Part shown: piece after piece, positions 1 to 60,640 of the stretch | How the letters are laid out: each line of letters opens with the position of its first letter | Position numbering within the stretch: position 1 is the stretch's first letter | From: Malacoraja senta | Lineage: Eukaryota | Direction of reading: 5' to 3' | DNA: 64,000 nucleotides | NCBI GenBank assembly: GCA_038087875.1 | Contig: CM075989.1 | Coordinates: 14,076,001 to 14,140,000, forward strand | Position numbers and translations under genes: made by a program | Notes under the pieces: generated by a model | What the model saw: the letters and a program-made list of their open reading frames with translations, nothing else | The model's database searches: none | What the model was told of the DNA's origin: nothing

Positions 1-520
1 ATTGAAGGATATGTTCTTGCGCTCAGATCCTGAATATACAGAGTGCTCTTGGGAAAAAGTTCAGGTACAAGATGCAACTCAACCATTAAATGTGAAAAAA
101 AAACAGTTAACTGCAATGAAGCATCTTGTTCTATAAGAAATGATGTTGTGGATGGATTGGAGTCCAGTGATCTTTCTGAAAGGTATTTATCAAGTGAAGA
201 TAACAGAGAAACAAAAGTTAAGAATGGCTCTTCAGATGAGTCTTTTCAACCATATTGGAAGAAGAAGAGTAAGTTACCAGTTAAACGTGGCCGGAAACCA
301 AAGTCAAACTTGGAAAGGGAAGATTTCCCCACCATGTATCGATGTCAGTATAAGGGTTGCTGTGCTGTTTACAGAGGAGTTGATGAACTTAAGAAACATA
401 TAAAAGAGCAGCATGAAGAGGTACGTGAAAGACCTTGCCCCCACCCAGGAGGTAACAAGGTGTTTCTGATTGATCGCTACCAGCAGCACCATGTAAAGCT
501 GATCCATACAGAAGAAAGAA
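1..520 (+). pseudogene. ZNF276: Processed fragment of zinc finger protein 276
   Basis: ORF 43-588 contains SDLSE, SSDESFQPY and EREDFPTMYRCQYKGCCAVYRGVDELKKHIKEQHEEVRERPCPHPGGNKVFLIDRYQQHHVKLIHTE, matching ZNF276 fingers 1-2 as recalled. No introns; one zinc-ligand Cys is changed to Gly. Confidence 0.85.
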
Positions 521-690
521 CATCTTTACAGATCAGGAGGAAGTGCAAAGCCTTTGGTCACAACTTCGGGAAGACAAACCACATTTGATCAACAATCTTG
601 AAGCATTTTGAGCTCTATCGTATGACCAAGGGTCTAGAGAGAGAGAAGCTGAACATTTTGAAACAGATGGAGCTCTTGAAAGAGATTATG
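519..690 (+). pseudogene. Two joined fragments of a CRACR2A/CRACR2B/RAB44-family coiled-coil region
   Basis: 519-608 reads [30 protein letters not shown] (cf. CRACR2A [23 protein letters not shown]). 610-690 reads [25 protein letters not shown] (cf. [25 protein letters not shown]). The intervening part is deleted; the paralog is uncertain. Confidence 0.65.
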
Positions 691-1385
691 CATAACCCTA
701 TCCAGGAAGACAATGACTCTGACCTGGTGGGTAATCAGTGTGATGACAATCAGGACATTGATGAGGATGGCAATGATGGCGTTTCTGATGAGAAGGACAA
801 TTGCCGTTTTGTTCCCAACCCTGACCAGATCGATGCCGATGGTGACAGCAGAGGAGACAACTGCAAAGACGACTTTGACAACAACATCCCAGATATCTAT
901 GACATGTGCCCCGAGAACAGTGCCATCAGTGAGGCTGACCTGAGGAAGTTCCAAAGGGGACGATGCAGATTGTTCCTAAGTGGGTAGTGCACAACAAGGG
1001 CAGGTAGTGCACAACAATGTTACCTTCTACGTCAACAGAGACCACAATCTATGCTGGCTTTGTCTTTGGCTTGCAGTCCAGCAGCCGCTTCTACGTGGTG
1101 ATGTGGAAGCAGGCCATCCAAACCTACTGGGAGGAGAAGCTGTCCAAACCCATGGATACGCTAGCGTCTAGACCAAGGTGATGAACCCCACCACAGGATA
1201 AGAGGGGGGAGCACCTCACCTGTGCAACGATCTACGAAGAGACTGGCAACACCCTCGGACAGGTGCGAACTTTATGGCACAACCCCAATATCGGCTGAAA
1301 GGATTACACCGCCTACAGGTGGCACCTGATCCATTGACCCTAAACAAGCTTCATCAGGATGGTTGTCAATGGTTGTCAATGAAGA
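691..1385 (+). pseudogene. THBS2: Processed, decayed thrombospondin-2-like fragment (type 3 repeats plus C-terminal domain)
   Basis: [27 protein letters not shown] / [19 protein letters not shown]...[22 protein letters not shown], then in shifting frames [31 protein letters not shown] and TGNTLGQVRTLWH..IG*KDYTAYRWHL. No introns; has stops, frameshifts and internal deletions. Closer to THBS2 than THBS1 by recalled residues. Confidence 0.8.
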
Positions 1386-1391
1386 GAGTGA

Positions 1392-1557
1392 GAACTGGTT
1401 GCCAGTTGGTTTGATGGACTTTGGGGTAGTATTGAACTGGTAGCCATACCTTTTGTTTGATGGACTTTGGGGTACTGTGATATATTATGGCTCTATCATT
1501 CTGCTAATCATTGCTCTAATACTTGCGACCATTGTGTATACCTACCGAGGACTGTGA
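1392..1557 (+). pseudogene. Retroviral Env transmembrane-anchor-like remnant
   Basis: Duplicated (SW/L)FDGLWG motif followed by hydrophobic TVIYYGSIILLIIALILATIVY then TYRGL*. Its position upstream of the PPT/LTR fits the end of env. Confidence 0.4.
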
Positions 1558-15364: not shown

Positions 15365-17805
15365 CATCTTGGTTGGTACTGGACCCCAAGAAACGGAGTT
15401 TGTCGAGTGCCTCTGAGATGGATTCTTAGAGCAGCTTGCACTGGAGCCTACCAGGGAGAAGGCAACTCTGGATTTAGTGTTGTGTAATAATCTGGATTTG
15501 ATAAGAGAACTCAAGGTAAAGGAACCATTAGGCGGGAGTGACCAGAATATATATTTTAATCTGCGATTTGAGAGGGAGAAGGTAAAATCTGAAGTGTCAG
15601 TATTGCAGTTGAACAAAGGGGACTGTGGAGGCATGAGGGAGGAGCTGGCCAAAATTGACTGGAAAGTGACCCTTAGCGGGGTACACGGTGGAACAGCAAT
15701 TCCAGGAATTTCTGGGAATAATCCTGAAGATGCAGGATCATTTCATTTCAAAGAGGAGGAAAGATTCTAGGGGAGTAAGAGGCAGCCATGGCTGACAAGG
15801 GAAGACAAGGACAGTATAAAACTAAAAGAGAAGACATATAACACAGCAAAAATGAGCGGGAAGCCATAGGATTGGGCAACTTTTAAAGAACAACAGAAGG
15901 AAACTAAAAAGGCAACACGGGGAGAAAAGATGAAGTACGAAGGTAAGCGAGCCAATAATGTAAAGGAGGATAGTAAAAGCTTCTTTAGGTATGTGAAAAG
16001 GAAAGGATTAGTTAAGACAAATGTGGGTCCCTTGAAGACAGAAACAGGTGAATTTATTCTGAGGAAAAAGGAAATGGCAGACGAGTTGAACCAGTACTTT
16101 GTTTCTGTCTTCACGAAGGAAGACACAAACAGTCTCCCTGATGTACTAGGAGACAGAGGATCTAGGATGACGGAGAAACTGAAGGAAATTCACATTAGTC
16201 AAGACATGGTGTTGGGTAGACTGATGGGACTGAAGGCTGATAAATCCCCAGGGCCTGATGGTCTGCATCCCACGGTACTCAACGAGGTGGCTCTCGAAAT
16301 CGTGGATGCATTGGTGATCATTTTCCAATGTTCTATAGATACTGATTCGGTTCCTGTGGATTGGAGGGTAGCTAATGTTATCCCACTTTTTAAGAAAGGC
16401 AGGAGAGAGAAAATTGGGAACTATAAGCCTGACATCGGTAGTGGGAAGATGCTGGAGTCAATTATTAATGATGTAATAGCGGCGCATTTGGATAGCAGTA
16501 ACATGCTCGGTCCAAGTCAGCATGGATTTACAAAGGGGAAATCTTGCTTGACTAATCTTCTGGAATTTTTTTGAGGATGTAACAAGTAAAATGGATAAGG
16601 GAGAGCCAGTGGATGTAGTGTATCTGGACTTTCAGAAAGCCTTTGATAAGGTCCCACACAGGAGATTAGTGGGCAAAATTAGAGCACATGGTATTGTGGG
16701 TAGGGTATTGACATGATAGAATATTGGTTGGCAGACAGGAAACAAAGAGTAGGATTTAACGGTTCCTTTCAGAATGGCATGTAGTGACTAGTGGGGTGCC
16801 GCAGGGCTCGGTGCTGGGACTGCAGCTATTTACAATATAAATGATTTAGATGAAGGAATTAAAAGTAACATTAGCAAATTTGCAGATGACACAAAGCTGG
16901 GTGGCAGTGTGAACTGTGAAGAGGATGCTATGAGGATGCAAGGTGACTTGTACAGGTTGGGTGAGTGGGCAGATGCATGGCAGATGCAGTATAATGCGGA
17001 GAAATGTGAGGTTATCCACTTTGGTGGCAAGAACAAGAAGGCAGATTGTTATCTGAATGGTGTCAGATTAGGAAAAGGGGAAGTGTAACGAGACCTGGGT
17101 GTCCTTGTATATCAGTCACTGAAAATAAGCATGCAGGTGTAGCAGGCAGTGAAGAAAGCTAATGGCATGTTGGCCTTCATAACGATAGGATTTGAATATA
17201 GGAGCAAAGAGGTCCTTCTGCAGTTGTACAGGGCCCGGGTGAGACCACACCTGGAGTATTGTGTGCAATTTTGGTCCCCTAATGTGAGGTGATCTTGCTA
17301 TTGAGGGAGTGCAGCGTAGGTTCACGAGGTTAATTCCTAGGATGGCAGGGCTGTCATATGATAAAAGAATGGAATGATTGGTCTTGTATTCACTGAAATT
17401 TAGAAGGATAAGAGGGGATCTTGAAAAAACATATAAAATTAGTAAGGGATTGTACACGCTAGATGCAAGAAACATGTTCCCGATGTTGGGGGAGTCCAGA
17501 ATCGGGGGCCACAGTTTTCCGAACAAGGGGTTGGCCATTTAGAACTAAAATGCGGAAAAACATTTTCACTTTGAGAGTTGTGCATTTGTGGAATTCCCTG
17601 CCTCAGAAGGCAGTGGAGGCCGATTCACTGGATGCATTCAAGAGAGAGTTAGATATAGCTCTTAGGGCCAGCGGAATCAAGGGATATAGGGAGAAGGGAG
17701 GAACGGGGTACTGATTGTGGATGATCAGCCATGATCACATTGAATGGCGGTGCTGGCTTGAAGGGCTGAATGGCCTACACCTGCACCTATTTTCTATGTT
17801 TCTAT
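15365..17805 (+). mobile_element. CR1 LINE ORF2 (endonuclease end, RT, 3' tail), 5'-truncated and frameshifted
   Basis: DKSPGPDGLHP, PVDWRVANVIPLFKKG, SQHGFTKGKSCLTNLLEFF, YLDFQKAFDKV, SGVPQGSVLG, KFADDTKL; tail ending ctatgtttctat. Confidence 0.95.
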
Positions 17806-23189: not shown

Positions 23190-23757
23190 ATGGAGTATTG
23201 CGTATGGTTTTGGTCTCCAAATCTGAGGAAGGACATTATAACCATGGGGGGGAGTGCAGAGAAGGTTCACCAGACTGATTCCTGGGATGTCAGGACTTTC
23301 ATATGAAGAAAGACTGGATAGACTTGGCTTATACTCGCTAGAATTTAGGAGATTGAGAGGGGATCTTATAGAAACGTACAAAATTCTTGTGGGGTTGGAC
23401 AGGCTAGATGCAGGAAGATTGTTCCCGGTGTTGGGGGGGTCCAGGACAGGGGGTCACAGCTTAAGGATAAGGGGGAAATCCTTTAAGACCGAGATGAGGA
23501 AAAACCTTTTCACACAGAGAGTGGTGAATCTCTGGAGCTCTCTGCCACAGAGGGTAGTTGGGGCCAGTTCATTGGCTATATTTGGGAGGGAGTTGGATGT
23601 GGCCCTTGTGGCTAAAGGGATCAGGGGGTATGGAGAGAAGGCAGGTACGGGATGCTGAGTTGGATGATCAGCCATGATCATATTGAATGGCGGTGCAGGC
23701 TCGAAGGGCCGAATGGCCTACTCCTGCACCTATTTTCTATGTATCTATGTATCTATG
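23190..23757 (+). mobile_element. CR1 LINE 3' end
   Basis: QRRFTRLIPGMSGLSYEERLDRLGLYSLEFRRLRGDLIETYKI; (ctatgtat)n tail. Confidence 0.95.
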
Positions 23758-24534
23758 TAAATGCTGACTCGCTAGTGACATTTAGATCATGAGAAATAAA
23801 TAAAATAAACAATTAAAAGCTATTGTTCTTGAGCTCATGATTCTATAAATGTTTCTTGGAGCAAGCTACCCTATTTGCATATTTATCCCTGTGATCACTT
23901 ATTTCTCAACTAATAGCACTATAGCAGATTATCTATGTTTCTATTGTTTGGTATTTGTGGAGATTTGCTATACAAAACTTGAATGCCATATTTTTCTACA
24001 TCACAACGGTGACTACACGTTGAAAGTACGAAATTAATGTACTTTGCAAATTCCTGATGTTGTGAAGGGTGCTTATAAATGTAAATTATTTCTTTGTCTT
24101 TGTTTCTGCCTGACTGCACCAAATATCATCCACCCATTTTCACAGAACAAAGTAATTTCTCTAGTTATTTATGAGAGTGTCCCGTCCAAACGTACATTTT
24201 CTCCTTTAGTTATTTTGGCTGATGTATTCTGGCTCTAGTTTGACCATTATGAAAATCTGATAGTAAATTGTTGGAAGAGTGTGCACATTTGTTTAGATTC
24301 AATTAGTTGGCAGAATGATTGCTGTATAAGGCTGGCTTTGCTGATTTTTTTTGCTCATAGTCTATATATTGAATTTGTTTTTTATTGGCAGTATTTCTTG
24401 CAGTATTCCATTTGTTAATATGTGTTAAGATGTTAAGATCTTATTCTTTAATGTTTGGGATTTGTATCATCCCATTGATTGGAGAGAAGTTTATTAAAGT
24501 TCTGCTGTTTTAAATAAGTATTTTTTATTAACAG

Positions 24535-38330: not shown

Positions 38331-39674
38331 GTATGTATGAATGCAGGCTTTATTGCTGCAACAGTAAGCAATCAAGTTTACCTTAAATTCCATATATTTT
38401 CATTTTGTATTCCATACTGTTTTTCTTCAATTAATTGTTGCTTTCATTATTTTCCAATAAAGACTAGTCTTTTTTTTATTTAAGATTATATTAACATTAA
38501 ATTATTTAATTTAATATGCATTCTGCAAAGCATTTGAATAATTATGGATAAGAAAGGTTCAGAGGGATACGTGACAGGTACAGACAAAAGGGACTAGCTT
38601 GAATGAGGTATCATGGACGAGTTGGGTCAAAGGGCCTGTTTCTGTGCTGCATAACTCGATGACTCTATGGCTTTATAGAATCATAATTCTAATTGAAATA
38701 TAACGTTAGCATGATGATGTCTTCCAAGAGAGATAAGGAGAACAATATATTTCTACTGCTTATTAACCACGAGCGCTTACTTACTTTACTCTTTTTTTTG
38801 CCGATGTTGTGGTTACAAAAGTAAGTTGGGATAAAGTAGGACCACATCAAGGAATGTGAGTGGGTTAGACAAACACATACAGTGGTTTTGTAATACTATT
38901 CAAGCAAGTATGTGTCTAGTTCCTCACTCATTTACATTCTTCATATGAGCTTCAAGTGTTAATGTTAACAGGTTGTATGAGCAAAGGGACAACATGACTG
39001 GACCAAATTTTAAACAGTTTTAGCAGACCTTAGTGGTAAACAACAGCAGAAATTATTATATTTTTCTCCTTTTCTCTGCAAGAAACACTGAGGTTAATTA
39101 AAACATCAGCCAATTCAGTATAGACTTGACATGCTGATTTGTATGGTTGAGTATCACTGCAATGCCTCATTAAACCACAATACTAGATTTAATTTGTAGA
39201 GTTCAGACACTGTGGAATGTAGAGGCCAAAAGTAACTTTGCTACTGAGCCACAAAAAGCTATAGCAATACAGATGACCAAAGATTTGGCAAAAGAGTGGT
39301 TACTAGCGTCATCTTGAAGGAAAAGCGAGATGTAGTGACAAGCGTAAGAATTCCAGAGCTTGGAACCAAAGCTGCGAGCATTGGCCAGTAATTGATTCTC
39401 TGGATTTCCAAGTGAGCAGAATTGGAAGAATATGGAATTCATGAGGACTTGGAAGAGGTTACAAAGATGCAGAGAGATGAGGGTGTGCAAGGACATTAGG
39501 GTAATAATAAGGGTGATGATATTAAATATAAGGCAATAATGGACTGGATGAGACCGGTGTGGAGATAACAAAGATATTATTCATTGCTTCAGCAGCAAAG
39601 TTGCAGTCAGGCAGTGTTAGAGAATTTGAGGTAGGTAAGTTTGGCATTAGAATATTTATATGGTCAGAAGGTCA

Positions 39675-40200
39675 TAGAAACATAGAAAATAGGTGCAGGT
39701 GGAGGCCATTTGGTCCTTTGAGCCAGCACCGCCATTCATTGTGATCATGGCTGATCATCCACAATCAGTAACCTGTGCCTGCATTCTCCCCATACCCCTT
39801 GATTCCGCTAGCCCCTAGAGCTCTATCTAACACTCTTTTAAATTCATCCAGTGAATTGGCCTCCACTTCCTTCTGTGGCAGAGAATTCCACAAATTCACA
39901 ACTCTCTGGGAGAAAACGTTTTTTCTCACCTCAGTCTTTAATGGCCTCCCCTTTATTCTTAGACTGTGGCCCTTGGTTCTGGACTCCCCCAACATTGGGA
40001 ACATTTTTCCTGCATCTAGCTTGTCCAGTCCTTTTATAATTTTATACTTTTCTATAAGATACCCTCTCATCCTTCTAAATTCCCGTGAATACAAGCCCAG
40101 TCTTTCCAATCTTTCCTCATATGACAGTCCCGCCATCCTGTGGATTAACCCCGTGAACCTACGCTGCTCTGCCTCAATAGCAAGGATGTCCTTCTCAAAT
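39675..40200 (-). mobile_element. CR1 LINE 3' end
   Basis: ORF 39765-40136 MAGLSYEERLERLGLYS...; conserved CR1 3' tail. Confidence 0.95.
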
Positions 40201-49428: not shown

Positions 49429-51710
49429 CCCTAATGTAAAATCTGAAATAAAAGCAGAAAATGCTATAAATATCACTTGTTTAAAAAAAAAAGATATAAT
49501 TATTCTTGGCTGCTTTAGCTGCTGTAGTGAACATAAATCATGAATGCGTTTGGAGTTAACAAAGATTTTGTATTGTCATTTGTGATTTACAATAAATTGA
49601 ACATCTTATCTATGGACTAAGTTATACATATGAACCTACTGTCATACATAGAGTAAATGTTCTGATTTTCTACCAAAGCTTTAAAGTAATTACAGACTGA
49701 GGACTTTGTACAAATGTGTTCAATTTGTGTTTAATGATGTCACAAAGTTGCATCCACATATAAAATGTAATATATTGTTAGGTCTTGTTAATCTGTTGGA
49801 AATGAGGAAATTATTATCTAACGTTCAGAGTTCAGTTGAGAAATTAGTTTCGTAAATAAAAGTTAATCACCAGTTCCATTTCTTCCATGGGATTCTTGGA
49901 TGTCAAAGAAAGAGAAAACACTTGCATTTATTTTGCACCCTTTATTCTCAGGAGATGCTCAAAAGCACTTAATAGTAATTGAATTTGCTAACTGAAAGGT
50001 AATCTGTACTTTGCCAGAGGAACTATGGTATCCTCTTCATGTACAACACGATCCCACAGCAGGAGTTAGATCAGATGGAAAGATATTGCTGTATATGCTG
50101 GTAATCTGAAATAAAGCAGAACATGTTAGATTTGCTACTCAGGTCTTGCAGCCAGTGTGGAGAGATGAGCAGAGTTAACACTTGATCTTATCAGAATGGG
50201 GTACTAAGATAATGAACCGATAAGATCGGGTTTTGTTTAAGAGACAAAACCTGGACAGAATTGCAAAGTACGAAGCACTTTTCTTGGAAGCATTTATGGC
50301 CATTGGAGAGAATGGACGTGACCTCATTTTGACGTCACATTTGAAAGTGAGTCTGGGAGTTCCACAGTAGCTCACTGGAGAAGCAGCACAATGGGGCTAG
50401 ATCATACTGATAGTTACAAAGGGAACTGCTGGTTTTAATTTATTCCACTGGAGTCATTTCTGGTCAGATTTTGGTGCTTCTGCCACTTTGCTCCATCACC
50501 AAATTCCACATGGGAAATCAGTGAGACCTGGTGTCTACAATAGAAACCCATTTATTTGAACATGGATTCCTGTTCTGAAGATTAGGTGGAAAAAAGGCAT
50601 TATTTTTTTATTTAACAAGAAACATTTTTTTTTCATTTAAAAACTGTTATCTTTATGTACAGGAGACTCGACAGGGACAATTTCATGGCTTTTAAATTAC
50701 TTTTTTCTCAGCCTTACCTGTATTTAATGGTTGTGAGGGAGTGATGAGGTGGGTCAACATATTCCCGGATGTGAAGGGCCAGAACAGTGGCTCTCCTGTA
50801 GTAGGCTGAGGTAAGTGCAGATGGTGGGCAAATCTGAAAATTGGACCTAACTCAGCATAGTCCACGATCTTCCGACTCTGAGATAAGAGGCTGACTCTTC
50901 TGTATCATCCCTCAAAGGACGATTCCACACTGACTAGGACTGATCTAGCTGTATATTTTTTGTGATTGTGGCCATTGGAAACTGTATTGTACAGTTTTAC
51001 TTGTAGAAAAGAGATTGTTGAAGGTGATCAGCAATTCTCTCTCTGCTTTGGTAAGTCATATTATGGTCTTCCTCAAAGCAAGCAAAGTGCCTGGAGCTGT
51101 GATGTCAGATGGAATACAATGCATGATGAACATTTCTGTTGCAACGTTATATTGGATGTATACACAGAGGAATGTGAAGGCCTATTCAAGTGATTCTTAT
51201 CTAAGCCGCTGTTAGCACTTTGTTAGTGAAGCCAACAGTGAAATCTTCACAGACAGTCAAGATGTCTTCTGTGACACTTGTGACACTGTGACAGTGTGGC
51301 AACCAATCAGTCCTAGTCCCATCATTCACTGGGGATGGGCGGCACTCTGATTTTCAACAGCCCCACCCCCACTCAAAAGAAAACAGCAATTCAGGAGGTC
51401 ATGCTTTAAAGTTTGAGATTCTCTAGCTTAAAAGTTTGAAGGTTTACGTTTTTTAAAGGGCATAAAACAAAAGGACATAGGTCCCATGACTCCACATGGA
51501 ACTGGCTGTTCCTGTCTTAGCACCATGTTTTCTAAACCATTAACACTTTAAGTTTATTTTGAATATATATCTGTCCACCAATATCAGAAATAATTGTAGT
51601 ATAATTGTACATTAAACCTCAACTTTGTTTCAACTGATCCCTGTTTATTCAGTGCTACAGTTTTCAGCATTCATTGATGATAACTTCTAAACTTACATAA
51701 AGTTGGATAT

Positions 51711-51868
51711 TGTTGTGTATTTGTTGCTTGGAACGGTCTTTAAATAATACTCGGACACGGGAGTAAACTAACAAGCTTCTTTATTCTAAACGCCACCTTG
51801 AGTCTCTCCTGCGCATGCGTACCATTGCGCAAGACATCAAATATGTTAATTATATTACATACCTAACA
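51711..51868 (-). repeat. 3' LTR (158 bp)
   Basis: Direct repeat of 55301-55458 with 2 mismatches; minus-strand AATAAA near 51780; NRF1-like TGCGCATGCG motif. Confidence 0.97.
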
Positions 51869-51883
51869 CTCCTCCCCCTTTAA
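51869..51883 (-). promoter_or_regulatory. Polypurine tract
   Basis: Minus strand AAAGGGGGAGGAG directly abuts the TG of the 3' LTR. Confidence 0.9.
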
Positions 51884-52189
51884 CTTGGAGGCAGGTAACA
51901 CCATTTCTATTTCATACCCCACACTCCTCCCCCTTTAACTTGGAGGCAGGTAACACCATTTCTATTACATAAACAGTACTCCTCCCCTTTTAACTCAATT
52001 TCACCTTCACGATATATGCTATTTACCTAACATATAATTGATTGATACACTGTTGCAAAATTGTATTATTAAAGTCATCTTACAATGCATCCTCATAACT
52101 GTAATAATCTTATCTAAACCTAGCACATAATTTTCATTCCACCCATCTTCCTTAAACCAAATACATTACCCCTTGCTTTATGTGTTATC

Positions 52190-52728
52190 ATTTTCCGTTC
52201 CCTTATGTGTAAATTGCGCACTCTTTCTAATCGCTCTAGCTCTGCCTGTATCTCGGACTCTTCCTTTTTAAATGTCCTAATCTTAATTTGAAGATTTCTT
52301 CCTGTTCCTGATATTCTGCTAAAGTTAACATTTAATTTTCTGCTTCATATATTCGCTTTGTTTTCCTCTGTTTCTGTTCATTATTTGTAGGTGGCACCTG
52401 ACACATGGCTGCAGGTTTTCGTTTTGCTAGCAGCTTTCTCTGTCGCTCAATTTCCTTGCGCTGCGTATTTATCCGCTCTTGTTGTTTAATAAGATTCTGC
52501 AATGCATAACCATGTGTCCATTGCTCAGTGAAGGAGGCTACATGCCAGACTGTATGTAGTGAAGTGTCCTAGTCGCAATCGGTCCTGCATACTTTTGTCT
52601 CGACCGACAAGCCTCTCTTGTTTAGACATTTCTATTAGCAGCTTTTTACTCATTGTCACACATTTATTTAACCATTCTTTGTATCGTTTAAGTATTTTCT
52701 GTTGTTCATCTATTATTCTTAAGTCACA
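52190..52728 (-). pseudogene. TLK2: Processed fragment of tousled-like kinase 2 (coiled-coil region, no kinase domain)
   Basis: [54 protein letters not shown], then after a frameshift [103 protein letters not shown]. The linker resembles TLK2 rather than TLK1; no introns. Confidence 0.9.
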
Positions 52729-53695
52729 TCTCTGGTTCTTCATCAAGAAGTAGGATCTATATTGTCTTTGCAATACAACAATATAGTTTTCTTGCTTCAT
52801 AAGCAAGGTAGTGAGACTGCACTACAATTGCTGGATATTTCAGTTTGAAGAAGTCTTTCCTATACCCAATCATAGGGAGTACTGACTGAATTTGTACAGT
52901 AGCCCTCTTTTGCTTAATCCACTGCCTAACCACCATACCCTTGTAGGCAGCCTGAATGGCAATGGTTGCATACCTCATTGACTGATATTGCACAAACTGG
53001 GCATGCCCTATTTTGCATGCTTTGTACCATCTCTGGATCGAAATGACTGCTTGTCGCATAGCTCTGTAGCATACCCTTGATCGGTACCCACGGAATGAAG
53101 CTTGCAAAGTGACTATAGCCGCCTTTTGCATCAAGAAATATTTTCTTGAAATGCACATCATTAAGAATGACTTAATATGGCGAGCTGCCTTGATTTTCTC
53201 AACCAATTCTCTGGCTTTGACTCCGCTGTAGAAGGCCTGAATACAAACCACTGCTTTTCTCAAACTATTATAATGTCTCACGTGGGCATCTCTTATCTGG
53301 CAAGCCCTGTATCATTGCTGTACAGCAGTGGCGGACCAGCGTAGTTTCTTGAAATACTGACGCTGTTTATGCATTTGATAATAGGTCTGTATGACCTTGG
53401 CATGCACCGCAATTGCTTTCGAACAACCATTCCTCGGTAGGCAGCCTGAAGCAGCACAACGCTGCTGCATACCTTCATGTAAGTTTTGCGATCAGTTTCC
53501 ATTTGAAGGTGTGCCCTATAATGGGTTTGTACTATTATAGCTGCCAATCTCATTGCCCTGTATGGACGGTATACTCGTTGCATTCTAAATACTGCTTGTA
53601 TTACTGTTGCTGCCTTCTGTTTGTCCCGTATCTCTCTCCGTACCTTCATACCCCTGAAGGCAGCTTGAATAGTTAGGGTTGCCCTCTGGATGGTC
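52729..53695 (-). pseudogene. ASPM: Fragment of the ASPM IQ-repeat array
   Basis: Tandem motifs IQAAFRGMKVRR, IQAVFRMQR, VQTHYRAH, LQAAYRGMVVRK, LQASFRGY, IQRWYKA and IQAAYKGMVVR, with ASPM-type periodicity; frameshifts near 53400 and 52795, and a TGA near 53313. Confidence 0.85.
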
Positions 53696-54252
53696 ATGTC
53701 CCTTTGCATTTGACTTCTGTCCCTTTGCATTTGACTTCTGTGCCTTTGCATTTGACTTCTGTCCAGTACATGTGCCCTGTACTGCTGTTGGTAAGCTCTA
53801 ACAGCATCACACTGGCTTTTGGTGTGACCCGTTCCCGAGCACTTGAAACACCTACTATCTCTGACTTTACACATCGCCGGCTCATGGCTGCCTCCACATC
53901 TCCAGCACTTCTTGGAGTTGTGAATCTTGTCTCTGGATGCCCTTGAGGGATTCCATGCCTCCTTTAGTTCAGGCTCCTTGTCTCTGGATGCCCTTGGAGG
54001 TTTTGGCGAGAATTGAGCCATTAATGCCTCCTCACATTCCTCGTACGTTTTACTCGTGGGCTTTGCTGGCTGCAGCAACGCACGTAAGGTGTGATAACCC
54101 TTGCTTCCTAAGCCTACAATGAACCAATCTCTCTTCTTCTCCTCCGCAGTGATATCATTGAAAATGAACCAAGCCTCCAAGACTTCGGTCCATTTCTCAA
54201 AATTATACCCCGAATCTAACTGGGGCACATTTCTTACAATTAAAGTAGCCAT
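53293..54252 (-). CDS. gag: Gag-IQ-repeat fusion ORF, 319 aa (Mag-like Gag N-terminus, two zinc knuckles, ASPM IQ motifs)
   Basis: FEKWTEVLEAWFIFNDI..KKRDWFIVGLG..Y..LRALLQPAKPTSKTYEE..L..QFSPKP; knuckles CWRCGGSHEPAMC and CFKCSGTGHTKSQC; then four IQ-like motifs in the same frame. Confidence 0.85.
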   Translation of the reverse strand: MATLIVRNVPQLDSGYNFEKWTEVLEAWFIFNDITAEEKKRDWFIVGLGSKGYHTLRALLQPAKPTSKTYEECEEALMAQFSPKPPRASRDKEPELKEAWNPSRASRDKIHNSKKCWRCGGSHEPAMCKVRDSRCFKCSGTGHTKSQCDAVRAYQQQYRAHVLDRSQMQRHRSQMQRDRSQMQRDMTIQRATLTIQAAFRGMKVRREIRDKQKAATVIQAVFRMQRVYRPYRAMRLAAIIVQTHYRAHLQMETDRKTYMKVCSSVVLLQAAYRGMVVRKQLRCMPRSYRPIIKCINSVSISRNYAGPPLLYSNDTGLAR

Positions 54253-54853
54253 GCTACCCTGTTGCTATTCAGGTGCACTATGTTCTGTTCTCTCACTGTG
54301 TTCTCTGCACTGGACTTAATCCTTTTACACACTAAGAAGTTATCCAGCCCACTGACTATTACTAATTCTTATAATAATAGATTTATACTAATAAATCAAC
54401 ATTTCATGTTAATAGCAAACTAGAACATTTAAACCATATACCTGCTATGCACACAGATTTACTTAAATCATTGATACAGTGTCCATACATTAAATTCATA
54501 CAGTCCAGCTTTTACTGTGAGTAATTCACTAGTCCGACCTGACTGTCTCTGGACTCCGATGCCTCAGCGACCTCTCGGGCTGTCCTCACCGTTGCTGTCT
54601 TCAGCGGGCTGTTGCTGGCTTTTGCTGGCTTTTGCTGCTTTGCTGGCTTCACGGCTGGCCTGGCTGTTGCTGGCTTTTGCTGCTTTGCCTGTTGCTGGCT
54701 TCATGGCCTGGCTGTTGCTGGCTTTGTCCCGCTCTTCTCACGGCCGGGCCCGCTCTTCTCGCGGCCTGGGCTTTCTCTGCTTATGGCCGTCTCTCGCGGC
54801 CGAGCTGGCTCTGCTCACGGCCGTCTCTTGTGGCCGGCAGGAGACTCGGCTGT

Positions 54854-55015
54854 CGTCGGTGGCGGTTGCCGGACCTGTCCGTGGGCTGCACGGTACTGGC
54901 CCTCACCCGACGTCGGTGGCGGCTGCTAGGCCTGGCCGTGGGCTGCACGGCCCTGGAACTCACCCGACGTCGGTGGCGGCTACTGGGCCTGGATGTTGGC
55001 TGCACAGCCCTGGAA
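54854..55015. repeat. 57-bp GC-rich tandem repeat (about 3 copies) in the element's 5' leader
   Basis: CGTCGGTGGCGG recurs at 54854, 54911 and 54968. Confidence 0.85.
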
Positions 55016-55285
55016 AGCGTTCCAGGTAAGCTGACACCGCTGTCCTGCTGGTTAGGCTTCTAGCTTCCAGCTGCGCTCTTCGGTGACACTTACTGCCTCG
55101 CTTGTTTTCCGTGCGCTCTTGCTTCCCGTTCCGACCTTTCTTTTCTTTGGCGCCAATTCAAATACCATTTGGCGCCAAATCTTTTTGCTTGGTGCCGTTC
55201 CAATTTGTGTCGCCAAATACCAACTCTTTTAAAACTTTTTTTCTTTTCTCTTGGCAGTACTCGTTCTTCTCTTCTCAGTTCTTTG

Positions 55286-55298
55286 ATCCTCGTCGCCA
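55286..55298 (-). promoter_or_regulatory. Primer binding site, tRNA-Ser(GCT)
   Basis: Minus strand TGGCGACGAGGAT, 2 nt after the 5' LTR; complementary to the recalled 3' end (ATCCTCGTCGCCA) of vertebrate tRNA-Ser(GCT). Confidence 0.85.
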
Positions 55299-55300
55299 AT

Positions 55301-55458
55301 TGTTGTGTATTTGTTGCTTGGAACGGTCTTTAAATAATAATCGGACACGGGAGTAAACTAACAAGCTTCTTTATTCTAAACGCCACCTTGAGTCTCTCCT
55401 GCGCATGCGTACCATTGCGCAAGACATCAAATATGTTAATTATATTACATAACTAACA
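55301..55458 (-). repeat. 5' LTR (158 bp)
   Basis: Direct repeat of 51711-51868; adjacent to the PBS. Confidence 0.97.
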
Positions 55459-55554
55459 GATATGTAATATAATGCTCATCTGGTATCTGAAAGCATTAAG
55501 TGTCTGGGAGATTTTGCCTGAAGATGGGTCCCAACCTGTGGTGGGATGGTGGGT

Positions 55555-58637: not shown

Positions 58638-59885
58638 GCAAGGGTGCTTGACTAATCTTTTGGAATTTCTTGAGGATGTAACTAGGAAAATGGACAAGGG
58701 AGAGCCAGTGGATGTAGTGTACCTGGACTTTCAGCAAGCATTTGATAAGGTCTCACATAGGAGATTAGTGGGCAAAATTAAGGCACATGGTATTGGGGAT
58801 AGAGTAATAACATGGATAGAAAATTGATTGGCAGACAGGAAACAAAGAGTAGGGATTAACGGGTCCCTTTCAGAATGGCAGGCAGAGACTAGTGGGGTAC
58901 CTCAAGGCCCGGTGCTGAGACCGCAGCTATTTACAATATATATTAATGATTTAGATGAAGGGATTAGGTAACATTAGCAAATTTGCAGATGACACAAAGC
59001 TGGGTGGCGGTGTGAACTGTGAGGAGGATGCTATGAGAATGCAGGGTGACTTGGACAGGTTGGGTGAGTGGGCATATGCATGGTACAAGCAGTTTAATGT
59101 GGATAAATGGGAGGTTATCCACTTTGGCAGCAAAAACAGGAAGGCAGATTATCTACATGGTGTCAAGTTGGGAAAAGGGGAAGTACAATGGGATCTGGGG
59201 GTCCTTGTTCATCAGTCAATTAAAGTAAGCATGCAGGTACAGCAGGCAGTGAAGAAAGCGAATGGCATGTTGGCCTTCATAACAAGAGGAGTTGAGAATA
59301 GGAGCAAAGAGGTCCTTCTGCAGTTGTACAGTGCCCTAGTGAGACCACACCTGGAGTATTGTGTGCAGTTTTTGTCTCCGAGTTTGAGGAAGGACATTCT
59401 TGCTATTGCGGGAGTGCAGCTTAGTCAATGGGGACAAGGTTAATTCCCAGGATGGCGGGACTGTTATATGCTGAGAGAATTGAGCGGCTGGGCTTGTATA
59501 CTCTGGAATTTAGGATGAGAGGGAATCTTATTGAAACATATAGGATTATTAAGGGTTTGGACATGTTCCCGATGTTGGGGGAGTCCAGAACCAGGGGCCA
59601 CAGTTTAAGAATAAGGGCTAAGCCATTTAGAACGGAGATGAGGAAACACTTTTTCACACAGAGAGTTGTGAGTCTGTGAAATTCTTTGCCTCAGAGGGCA
59701 GTGGAGGCCGGTTCTCTGGATACTTTCAAGAGAGAGCTAGATAGGGCTCTTAAGGATAGCGGAGTCAGGGGATAAGGGGAGAAGGCAGGAACGGGGTACT
59801 GATTGTGCATGATCAGCCATGATCACATTGAATGGTGGTGCTGGCTCAAAAGGCCGAATGGCCTACTCCTGCACCTATTGTCTAT
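58638..59885 (+). mobile_element. CR1 LINE RT and 3' end
   Basis: CLTNLLEF, YLDFQQAFDKV, ISKFADDTKLGG and LVRPHLEYCVQF; highly similar to 16545-17800. Confidence 0.95.
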
Positions 59886-59889
59886 AAGG

Positions 59890-60640
59890 GTGTGTTCTCA
59901 GCCCCTTACTGTACCCTTTACACTCATGACTCTCGCCAAACTTTGCAGTAACTCCATTTACAAGTTTGTAGAAGACACCACTGTAGTAGGCCGGATCTCG
60001 AACAATGACAGGATACTGAATACAGGAAGAAGATAGAGCTCTTAATAACATAGTGTCAAGCCAACAACCTCTCCCTCAGCAAGATGAAGGAGCTTGTTAT
60101 TAACTTCAGGAATCGTGATGGTGGACACAATTCAGTGAACATCAATGGTTCTGAAGTGGAGATGCTTCTAGGCATAAATATCACCAATCATTTGTTCTGG
60201 ATGAAGCACATTGAAGCTACAGAGAACAAAGCACACCAATGTCTCTATTTCCCCAGTCTCCTGCATGTCTCAAATGATGCTTTTCAAAGTCTAAAGATAC
60301 ACTGTGCTCCATCGGGATGCTCTTCTGCTCTGCCCAATAACCTAAGAAATTGCAAAGAGTTGTGGAATTATGGGCAAAAACTTGAAAGCGCGTGCCACCA
60401 GATCCAGGAACAGCTTCTTCTATTCTCTCAGACTACTGAACGGACCTTTTACAATCTAAGGGTGTACGTCATAAAGCTGTAACATTATATTCTGCAGTCT
60501 GGTATTTTTCTCTTTGAATTACCTTCTGAATTTGTGTGTGTCTGCATTGTACTTGTGTGTCATACAGTTTGACTGGACAGCATTGCACACCAGGTTTTTC
60601 ACTGTATATTGGTACACATGACAAAAATAAACCAGAACCA
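59890..60640 (+). mobile_element. Rex1/Babar-like LINE remnant
   Basis: NSIYKFVEDTTVVGRISNND, MKELVINFR and KAHQCLYF. Confidence 0.7.

What the first reader, a model, noticed from the sequence alone, without database searches (positions are those of the whole stretch)
52525..54252. Both cargo junctions are in frame: possible Gag-IQ(-TLK2 coiled-coil) fusion protein
Seen: a 319-aa ORF runs from Gag through two zinc knuckles and a 7-aa repeat (RSQMQR x3; 21-bp unit at about 53698-53762) into four IQ-like motifs. The ASPM-TLK2 junction ([25 protein letters not shown], near 52728) is also in frame. The breaks in between are small frameshifts and one probable CGA>TGA. The Gag looks internally deleted after FSPKP. 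Established: IQ motifs bind calmodulin, and TLK coiled coils mediate dimerisation. Inference: an ancestor may have encoded one long fusion able to bind calmodulin or interfere with TLK dimers. Two in-frame joins can occur by chance (about 1 in 9).
Basis: partly seen in the sequence, partly recalled or inferred. Interest (0 to 1): 0.75.

Follow-up and report, generated by a model that had tools for sequence, protein, structure and literature searches.

The report
Skate retrotransposon carrying fused host genes
A multi-copy jumping element, likely of skates, carries pieces of two cell-division genes (ASPM and TLK2) joined in frame behind a shortened capsid gene; the pieces likely once formed one long reading frame, but they are drifting like passengers and no working fusion protein is shown.

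Summary
A 3.75-kb LTR element (158-bp LTRs, 2 differences, 5-bp target duplication) has no pol. It carries a shortened Gypsy gag joined in frame to about 350 codons of the ASPM IQ array, then to 180 codons of TLK2 coiled coils. The 21-bp repeat lies inside the ASPM piece. There are four frameshifts and two stops, not one.

It is a family. 1033 and 2173 differing contigs from two runs lie on it, and a little-skate RefSeq protein has the same Gag-IQ build. Each frameshift is absent from some contigs, so one ancestral frame is likely. Both joins sit at short words shared with the parent genes, as in LTR template switching.

Protein function is not supported. TLK2 changes hit invariant residues at chance rate (18 seen, 18.2 expected). 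The dimerising coil is cut, and common subfamilies spread with TLK2 frameshifts. Yet 4 of 4 large structural joins keep frame (about 1% by chance, counted after the fact), and the Gag deletion starts at a predicted domain linker. The best reading is selection for an open frame, not for a protein. Expression was not shown.

The parts
55459..55463 (-). 5-bp target-site duplication, upstream copy
   Evidence: identical to 51706-51710
55301..55458 (-). 5' LTR, 158 bp, TG...CA ends
   Evidence: 2 differences from the 3' LTR
55288..55298 (-). primer-binding-site-like motif 2 nt behind the LTR
   Evidence: position seen; the PBS label is recalled, the tRNA was not matched
54253..55300 (-). 1048-nt leader with GC-rich tandem repeats and 10 upstream ATGs
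53998..54252 (-). Gag aa 1-85: predicted four-helix N-terminal capsid domain, complete
   Evidence: 67-74% identity to Gypsy Gag-Pol P0024, P0027, P0028; helices from the model of relative P0002
53791..53997 (-). linker and two zinc knuckles (53809-53907) behind an in-frame loss of the capsid C-terminal domain
   Evidence: 20-nt direct repeat at 51-nt spacing
52725..53791 (-). ASPM IQ-array cargo, about aa 2580-2930 of stingray ASPM; 12 IQ-like motifs; frameshifts near 53400 and 52781, stop at 53312-14
   Evidence: parent-like loose ends at 53791 and 52725
53697..53764 (-). 21-bp (7-codon) triplication inside the ASPM piece
   Evidence: 14-aa insertion against ASPM; contigs that skip 42 nt here
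53296..54252 (-). 319-aa ORF: Gag N-domain, knuckles, four IQ motifs, off-frame tail
52186..52728 (-). TLK2 cargo, aa 194-373 of the 699-aa skate protein: end of coil 1, coils 2 and 3, no kinase; frameshifts near 52555 and 52265, stop at 52332-34
51853..51995 (-). 55-bp tandem array holding the polypurine tract (51869-51881)
51711..51868 (-). 3' LTR, 158 bp
51706..51710 (-). 5-bp target-site duplication, downstream copy

Best explanation
This is one copy of a multi-copy, pol-less Gypsy LTR element, likely of skates, that likely captured pieces of ASPM and TLK2 messenger RNA by template switching and likely kept them in frame with a shortened gag because an open frame favoured its RNA, while the cargo amino acids drift without constraint. 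Shown: the LTR anatomy, the parents of each piece, the in-frame joins, short shared words at both joins, many differing copies, a sibling protein in little skate, and no constraint on the TLK2 piece. Inferred: capture inside a particle from co-packaged mRNA; movement by a helper element's Gag-Pol; one ancestral frame of roughly 700 codons; and selection on the frame (escape from nonsense-mediated decay, or translation-linked RNA stability) rather than on the protein. The core (captured mRNA in a non-autonomous family, once one frame) I put at about 0.85; the frame-selection step is the uncertain part.
For: Anatomy. No pol: none of the 313 stored proteins, Gag-Pol polyproteins among them, matched the leader or the 3' part. 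Joins: loose ends at 53791, 52725 and 52713 read as ASPM and TLK2 continuations (the ASPM one matches stingray ASPM). The ASPM-TLK2 join has 4 shared bases. At the Gag-ASPM join both parents encode QQ. The TLK2 piece runs without an intron across a place where a human isoform has a 22-aa insert, so it is likely spliced. Family: 1033, 2173, 219 and 31 contigs laid from 4 of 23 listed runs; 16 runs of 8 organism labels hold 0.23-0.43 of the words. Contigs in X10 bridge both joins by 31 or more letters, and X18 record 22 bridges Gag-ASPM (tables 3 and 8). XP_055489032.1 shares the gag deletion and the IQ block. Frame kept: 4 of 4 large joins (capsid C-domain loss, Gag-ASPM, ASPM-TLK2, 201-nt knuckle loss in X10), chance 0.012-0.015. 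5 of 6 shown joints inside the Gag-IQ4 span are multiples of three; of the two 42-nt skips one is likely the parent gene. A second cargo stretch at window 34-960 also has two host pieces in one frame. No protein constraint: 24 of 178 TLK2 residues changed against 0-4 of 180 among six sharks, skates and rays; 18 at invariant sites against 18.2 expected; 21 non-synonymous to 9 synonymous among 30 window-side differences, ratio 0.6-0.85, not different from 1. A paper suggests that some translation may be needed for Ty1 RNA stability (PMC3945221 section 15).
Against: The 4-of-4 count is after the fact: the element was picked because its joins are in frame. Common variants spread with frameshifts: by summed contig depth, the break near 53400 is shared at depth 788 in X1 with no listed exception, one-base losses at 52283 and 52426 reach 1053 of 2040 and 647 of 1342 in X10, and a 31-nt loss is common. 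So a long frame is not needed for spread. One joint (+17) and several single pieces in the Gag-IQ span are out of frame. Only 12 of 52 indel rows, 15 of 42 joints and 40 of 478 substitution rows were shown. Mini-Ty1 elements without gene products move when a helper is supplied (PMC4974528 passage), and Ty1 Gag shows no preference for its own RNA (PMC3945221 abstract). The gag deletion starting at a predicted domain linker fits selection on a folded protein better than on frame alone.
Confidence: 0.45

Rival explanations
1. Pure chance: the cargo and its frame never mattered; the joins fell in frame by luck and the family moves only on its LTRs, primer site and packaging signals.
For: Each join has a 0.33-0.38 chance. 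Neutral-looking substitutions. Frameshifted variants are common. Gag N-domain departs from 3 (window) and 5 (little skate) of 27 conserved columns against 0-1 in three autonomous relatives. Ten upstream ATGs in the leader.
Against: 4 of 4 large joins and the 21-nt and 51-nt repeat units keep frame. No break in the first 850 nt against 6 in the next 1215 nt, P about 0.015. The little-skate sibling is open over the same span, though only open copies get annotated.
Confidence: 0.3
2. The short product (Gag N-terminal capsid domain plus about four IQ motifs) is a working protein: it would join helper capsids or assembly sites through the capsid domain and recruit calmodulin, helping the element's RNA or limiting the helper.
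For: The deletion begins between predicted helix 4 and helix 5, keeping the whole N-domain and removing the whole C-domain (fold like PNMA2, dArc1 and retroviral capsids, best E 0.003). Both open copies end just after IQ4. The IQ block is 78 of 91 identical between them. RefSeq lists the skate protein as isoform X1.
Against: Window and skate Gag differ at 23 of 85 residues, about what 12-15% neutral DNA divergence gives; listed sibling pieces in this part differ by 2-17%. Conserved columns are hit in both. Only 1 fused protein was seen among the 6, 45 and 150 listed hits of three searches.
Confidence: 0.18
3. One reading: a full Gag-IQ-TLK2 fusion was selected as a calmodulin sink or as a blocker of TLK dimers, to shift the germline cell cycle in the element's favour.
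For: Both parents are cell-cycle genes. The TLK2 piece ends about 20 residues before the kinase domain, the build of a dominant-negative fragment. One ancestral frame is likely.
Against: No constraint on the TLK2 piece. It starts a third of the way into the coil that dimerisation needs; coils 2 and 3 did not affect interactions in the human protein. Abundant variants are frameshifted in it. None of the 120 listed hits of the junction-spanning query was a fusion (120 of 1073 shown).
Confidence: 0.07

Closest known systems
LTR-mediated retrocopies (Tan et al. 2016, PMC5131818; abstract, sections 5, 6, 8 and passages read)
   Same: Partial mRNA replaces the inner ORFs between two LTRs; short shared words at the switch points; two parents in one chimera; further rounds of movement as a non-autonomous element.
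   Different: [quoted passage not shown] Here over a thousand differing contigs per run, in several organisms, and the cargo is in frame with gag.
Maize Bs1 (seen only as cited in PMC5131818; the original papers were not read)
   Same: LTR element whose hybrid frame joins pieces of several host genes; copies share the switch points.
   Different: Bs1 has 1-5 copies, one piece out of frame, and is reported as a functional hybrid gene. This family is a vertebrate, many-copy element with no sign of protein constraint.
Gag-onc fusions of acutely transforming retroviruses (recalled, no call)
   Same: Helper-dependent element with a host fragment fused in frame to a truncated gag.
   Different: Gypsy rather than retrovirus, no env, and no evidence that the cargo gives a growth advantage.
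XP_055489032.1, little skate, named 'ASPM homolog isoform X1'
   Same: Same Gag N-domain, same deletion point, 7-aa repeats, same four IQ motifs.
   Different: Lacks the zinc knuckles, has about 13 repeat units, ends after IQ4; its name hides its transposon origin. Its DNA was not seen.

Membership tests
Gypsy/Ty3 LTR retrotransposon (non-autonomous) | two LTRs with TG...CA ends and a target-site duplication | tested here: met
Gypsy/Ty3 LTR retrotransposon (non-autonomous) | gag related to elements with protease-RT-RNase H-integrase order | tested here: met
   69% to P0027 over aa 1-85; Pfam order in P0027
Gypsy/Ty3 LTR retrotransposon (non-autonomous) | primer binding site and polypurine tract next to the LTRs | tested here: inconclusive
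   purine tract seen directly; PBS-like motif in place but not matched to a tRNA
Gypsy/Ty3 LTR retrotransposon (non-autonomous) | no pol, yet many copies | tested here: met
Gypsy/Ty3 LTR retrotransposon (non-autonomous) | a helper with the same LTRs or primer site in the same genome | not testable with these tools
   no genome is held for this window
LTR-mediated retrocopy | partial host coding sequence, sense strand, replacing inner ORFs | tested here: met
LTR-mediated retrocopy | short shared words at switch points | tested here: met
   4 bases at ASPM-TLK2; shared QQ codons inferred at Gag-ASPM from parent proteins and one loose end; the switch back to the element at 52186 was not resolved
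LTR-mediated retrocopy | introns lost | tested here: inconclusive
   TLK2 piece is continuous across an isoform boundary; the parent's genomic DNA was not seen
Functional chimeric retrogene (Bs1-like) | purifying selection on the hybrid protein | tested here: not met
   window lineage and one sibling only
Functional chimeric retrogene (Bs1-like) | transcription and translation across the joins | tested here: inconclusive
   no run on record as RNA; contigs only

The most novel reading that the evidence does not exclude
A vertebrate Gypsy parasite has built and spread, across several skate species, a modular Gag-host fusion: the capsid N-domain cut cleanly at its linker and wired to calmodulin-binding IQ repeats of ASPM, made in the germline and used to board or steer helper capsids. 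It would be a retrotransposon counterpart of gag-onc fusions, with the TLK2 coils an earlier, now discarded module.
Probability: 0.18. Interest if true: 0.8.

Novelty: new variant of a known kind. Interest (0 to 1): 0.5.

Why it matters
Capture of mRNA by LTR elements is known, but described cases are low-copy. A many-copy family with two host pieces in frame with gag, varying across species, allows a direct test of whether such elements are selected for an open frame, for a protein, or for neither. It also shows that a RefSeq 'ASPM homolog' in little skate is a transposon chimera, which would mislead gene-family counts. If the short Gag-IQ product works, it would be a new way for a parasite of a transposon to use host domains.

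Tried and rejected
No whole genome is held, so copies could not be counted or dated one by one. No RNA holder was listed. X18 is marked probably DNA and X19 is only guessed to be RNA. In X19 a chain of contigs at depth 8-17 runs from the ASPM piece through TLK2 into the LTR and 138 letters beyond it; its junction contig has only 21 sure letters on the ASPM side, and gag has no cover there. I count none of this as evidence on expression. Microhomology as the cause of in-frame joins: rejected, same-phase share 0.33-0.38 for words of 2-5, 0.22-0.43 for 6-7 on small counts. The repeat as a Gag-derived linker: rejected, although AHVLD also resembles the parent Gag's AHHLD. Atlas search: no usable hit. 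Foldseek gave no match at E 0.001 or better; capsids at 0.003-0.02. The TLK2 model is poor (mean pLDDT 40), used only for the three long helices. Four rows (53478, 53483, 53499, 53677) were left out of the 30-site count because X1 and most of X10 share the window's letter; six more of the 40 shown rows lie outside coding pieces; one piece's frame was mis-set, which does not change the 21:9 total. No complex prediction was sent: IQ-calmodulin and coil-coil pairs would pass by likeness. Paper searches for this family found nothing (0 papers; listings seen, none on this family by title or abstract start). Repbase and Dfam could not be searched, and supplements of genome papers were not seen, so the family may already be catalogued. 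Four look-ups in earlier findings were empty.

Full report
Anatomy. The finding lies inside a 3.75-kb element on the minus strand. Its LTRs (55301-55458 and 51711-51868) are 158 bp, differ at 2 places, end in TG and CA, and are flanked by a 5-bp duplication. A primer-site-like motif follows the 5' LTR and a purine tract precedes the 3' LTR. Behind a 1048-nt leader the gag ATG opens a 319-aa ORF. There is no pol: none of 313 stored proteins, Gag-Pol polyproteins among them, matched the leader or the 3' part.

The pieces. Gag aa 1-85 is 67-74% identical to Gypsy Gag-Pol proteins, and the knuckles align with their residues 208-260. In a model of relative P0002, four helices end 4 residues before the deletion point and five more follow it; the fold resembles PNMA2, dArc1 and retroviral capsids at weak E-values. 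So the predicted N-domain is whole and the C-domain gone. The ASPM piece is colinear with about aa 2580-2930 of stingray ASPM. The TLK2 piece is aa 194-373 of skate TLK2 and stops about 20 residues before the kinase. The host is likely a skate, from the named relatives.

Joins and breaks. Loose ends of contigs show the parents running on at both joins. ASPM continues past 52725 exactly as stingray ASPM does, and TLK2 runs upstream of 52728; four bases are shared, in the same codon phase. At 53791 a contig continues into an ASPM IQ motif, and both parents encode QQ there. The 21-bp repeat is therefore inside ASPM. Shared words are not biased to the same phase (0.33-0.38), so 1 in 9 is fair for two joins. 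The copy has four frameshifts and two stops.

A family. Sixteen of 23 listed runs, of eight organism labels, hold 0.23-0.43 of the element's words. I laid four runs: 1033, 2173, 219 and 31 contigs, mostly 90-99% alike. Depth there is summed contig depth, not copy number, and the parent genes add to it, but gag and the non-coding parts are covered as deeply as the cargo in X1 and X10. Contigs in X10 bridge both joins. The little-skate protein XP_055489032.1 has the same gag deletion and IQ block, lacks the knuckles and ends after IQ4. A 201-nt skip and a depth trough over the knuckles in X10 match that form. The LTRs give 0.6% per branch (95% range 0.08-2.3%), while listed pieces differ from the window by 2-17%. 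The insertion is thus much younger than the capture.

One ancestral frame. The break near 52555 is absent from 358 of 383 depth units in X1. The break near 52265 is absent from a minority (25 of 500 in X1, 299 of 2300 in X10). The two ASPM breaks are absent from some contigs, which may be the parent gene. The stops could not be read from the rows shown. A continuous ancestor is the simplest reading. But the break near 53400 is general in X1, and other TLK2 frameshifts are common in X10, so the family kept moving after the frame broke.

Selection. On amino acids I find none. TLK2 is nearly invariant among sharks, skates and rays (0-4 of 180), while the cargo has 24 changes in 178, as 6% neutral divergence would give; 18 fall on invariant sites against 18.2 expected. 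Thirty window-side differences give 21 non-synonymous to 9 synonymous, P 0.15-0.41 against neutrality; they come from 40 of 478 rows. The Gag N-domain departs from conserved columns more than autonomous relatives do. On frame there is a hint: four large joins all keep it (0.012-0.015, after the fact), the first 850 nt have no break (P about 0.015), and a second cargo stretch at window 34-960 holds a zinc-finger piece and a thrombospondin piece in one frame with one stop.

Mechanism. Most likely a helper-built particle co-packaged abundant mRNAs, reverse transcriptase switched templates at short shared words, and the chimera moved on as a non-autonomous element, as described in PMC5131818 (sections 5, 6, 8 read). 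Variants with a long open frame may have been favoured through RNA stability; PMC3945221 section 15 suggests this for Ty1, while mini-Ty1 data argue that internal coding is dispensable.

Verdict. Observation confirmed; ancestral fusion frame likely; protein function unsupported; expression untested. It works like Bs1 and other LTR-mediated retrocopies and fails the one tested mark of a functional retrogene. I found no paper on this family, but repeat libraries and supplements were not seen. New variant of a known kind; interest 0.5.

Noticed in passing
window 1-1500, + strand: A second cargo-like stretch: a C2H2 zinc-finger gene piece (weak match to ZFP91, E 0.004), about 55 unidentified codons with one stop at 586-588, and thrombospondin type-3 repeats (E 7.5e-39), all in one frame; purine-rich and duplicated motifs follow near 1200 and 1400-1480. 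Possibly another LTR element cut by the window's edge.
   Followed up: partly
P0001 (XP_055489032.1): A RefSeq protein named ASPM homolog in little skate is a Gag-IQ chimera of this family, with about 13 copies of a 7-aa repeat.
   Followed up: partly
P0173, P0314, P0315: Ray ASPM holds three near-identical IQ blocks about 219 aa apart; the cargo begins in such a block.
   Followed up: no
window 51853-51995: The purine tract and LTR start are triplicated as a 55-bp unit; contigs show many length variants here.
   Followed up: no
window 52849-53384: Nine of the 12 shown differences in this ASPM part fall on first codon positions and none on second; unexplained, possibly an effect of which rows were shown.
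   Followed up: no
window 15870-17800, 23250-23760, 39670-40200, 58670-59890: Several decayed copies of one LINE-like repeat in both orientations (the class is recalled).
   Followed up: no
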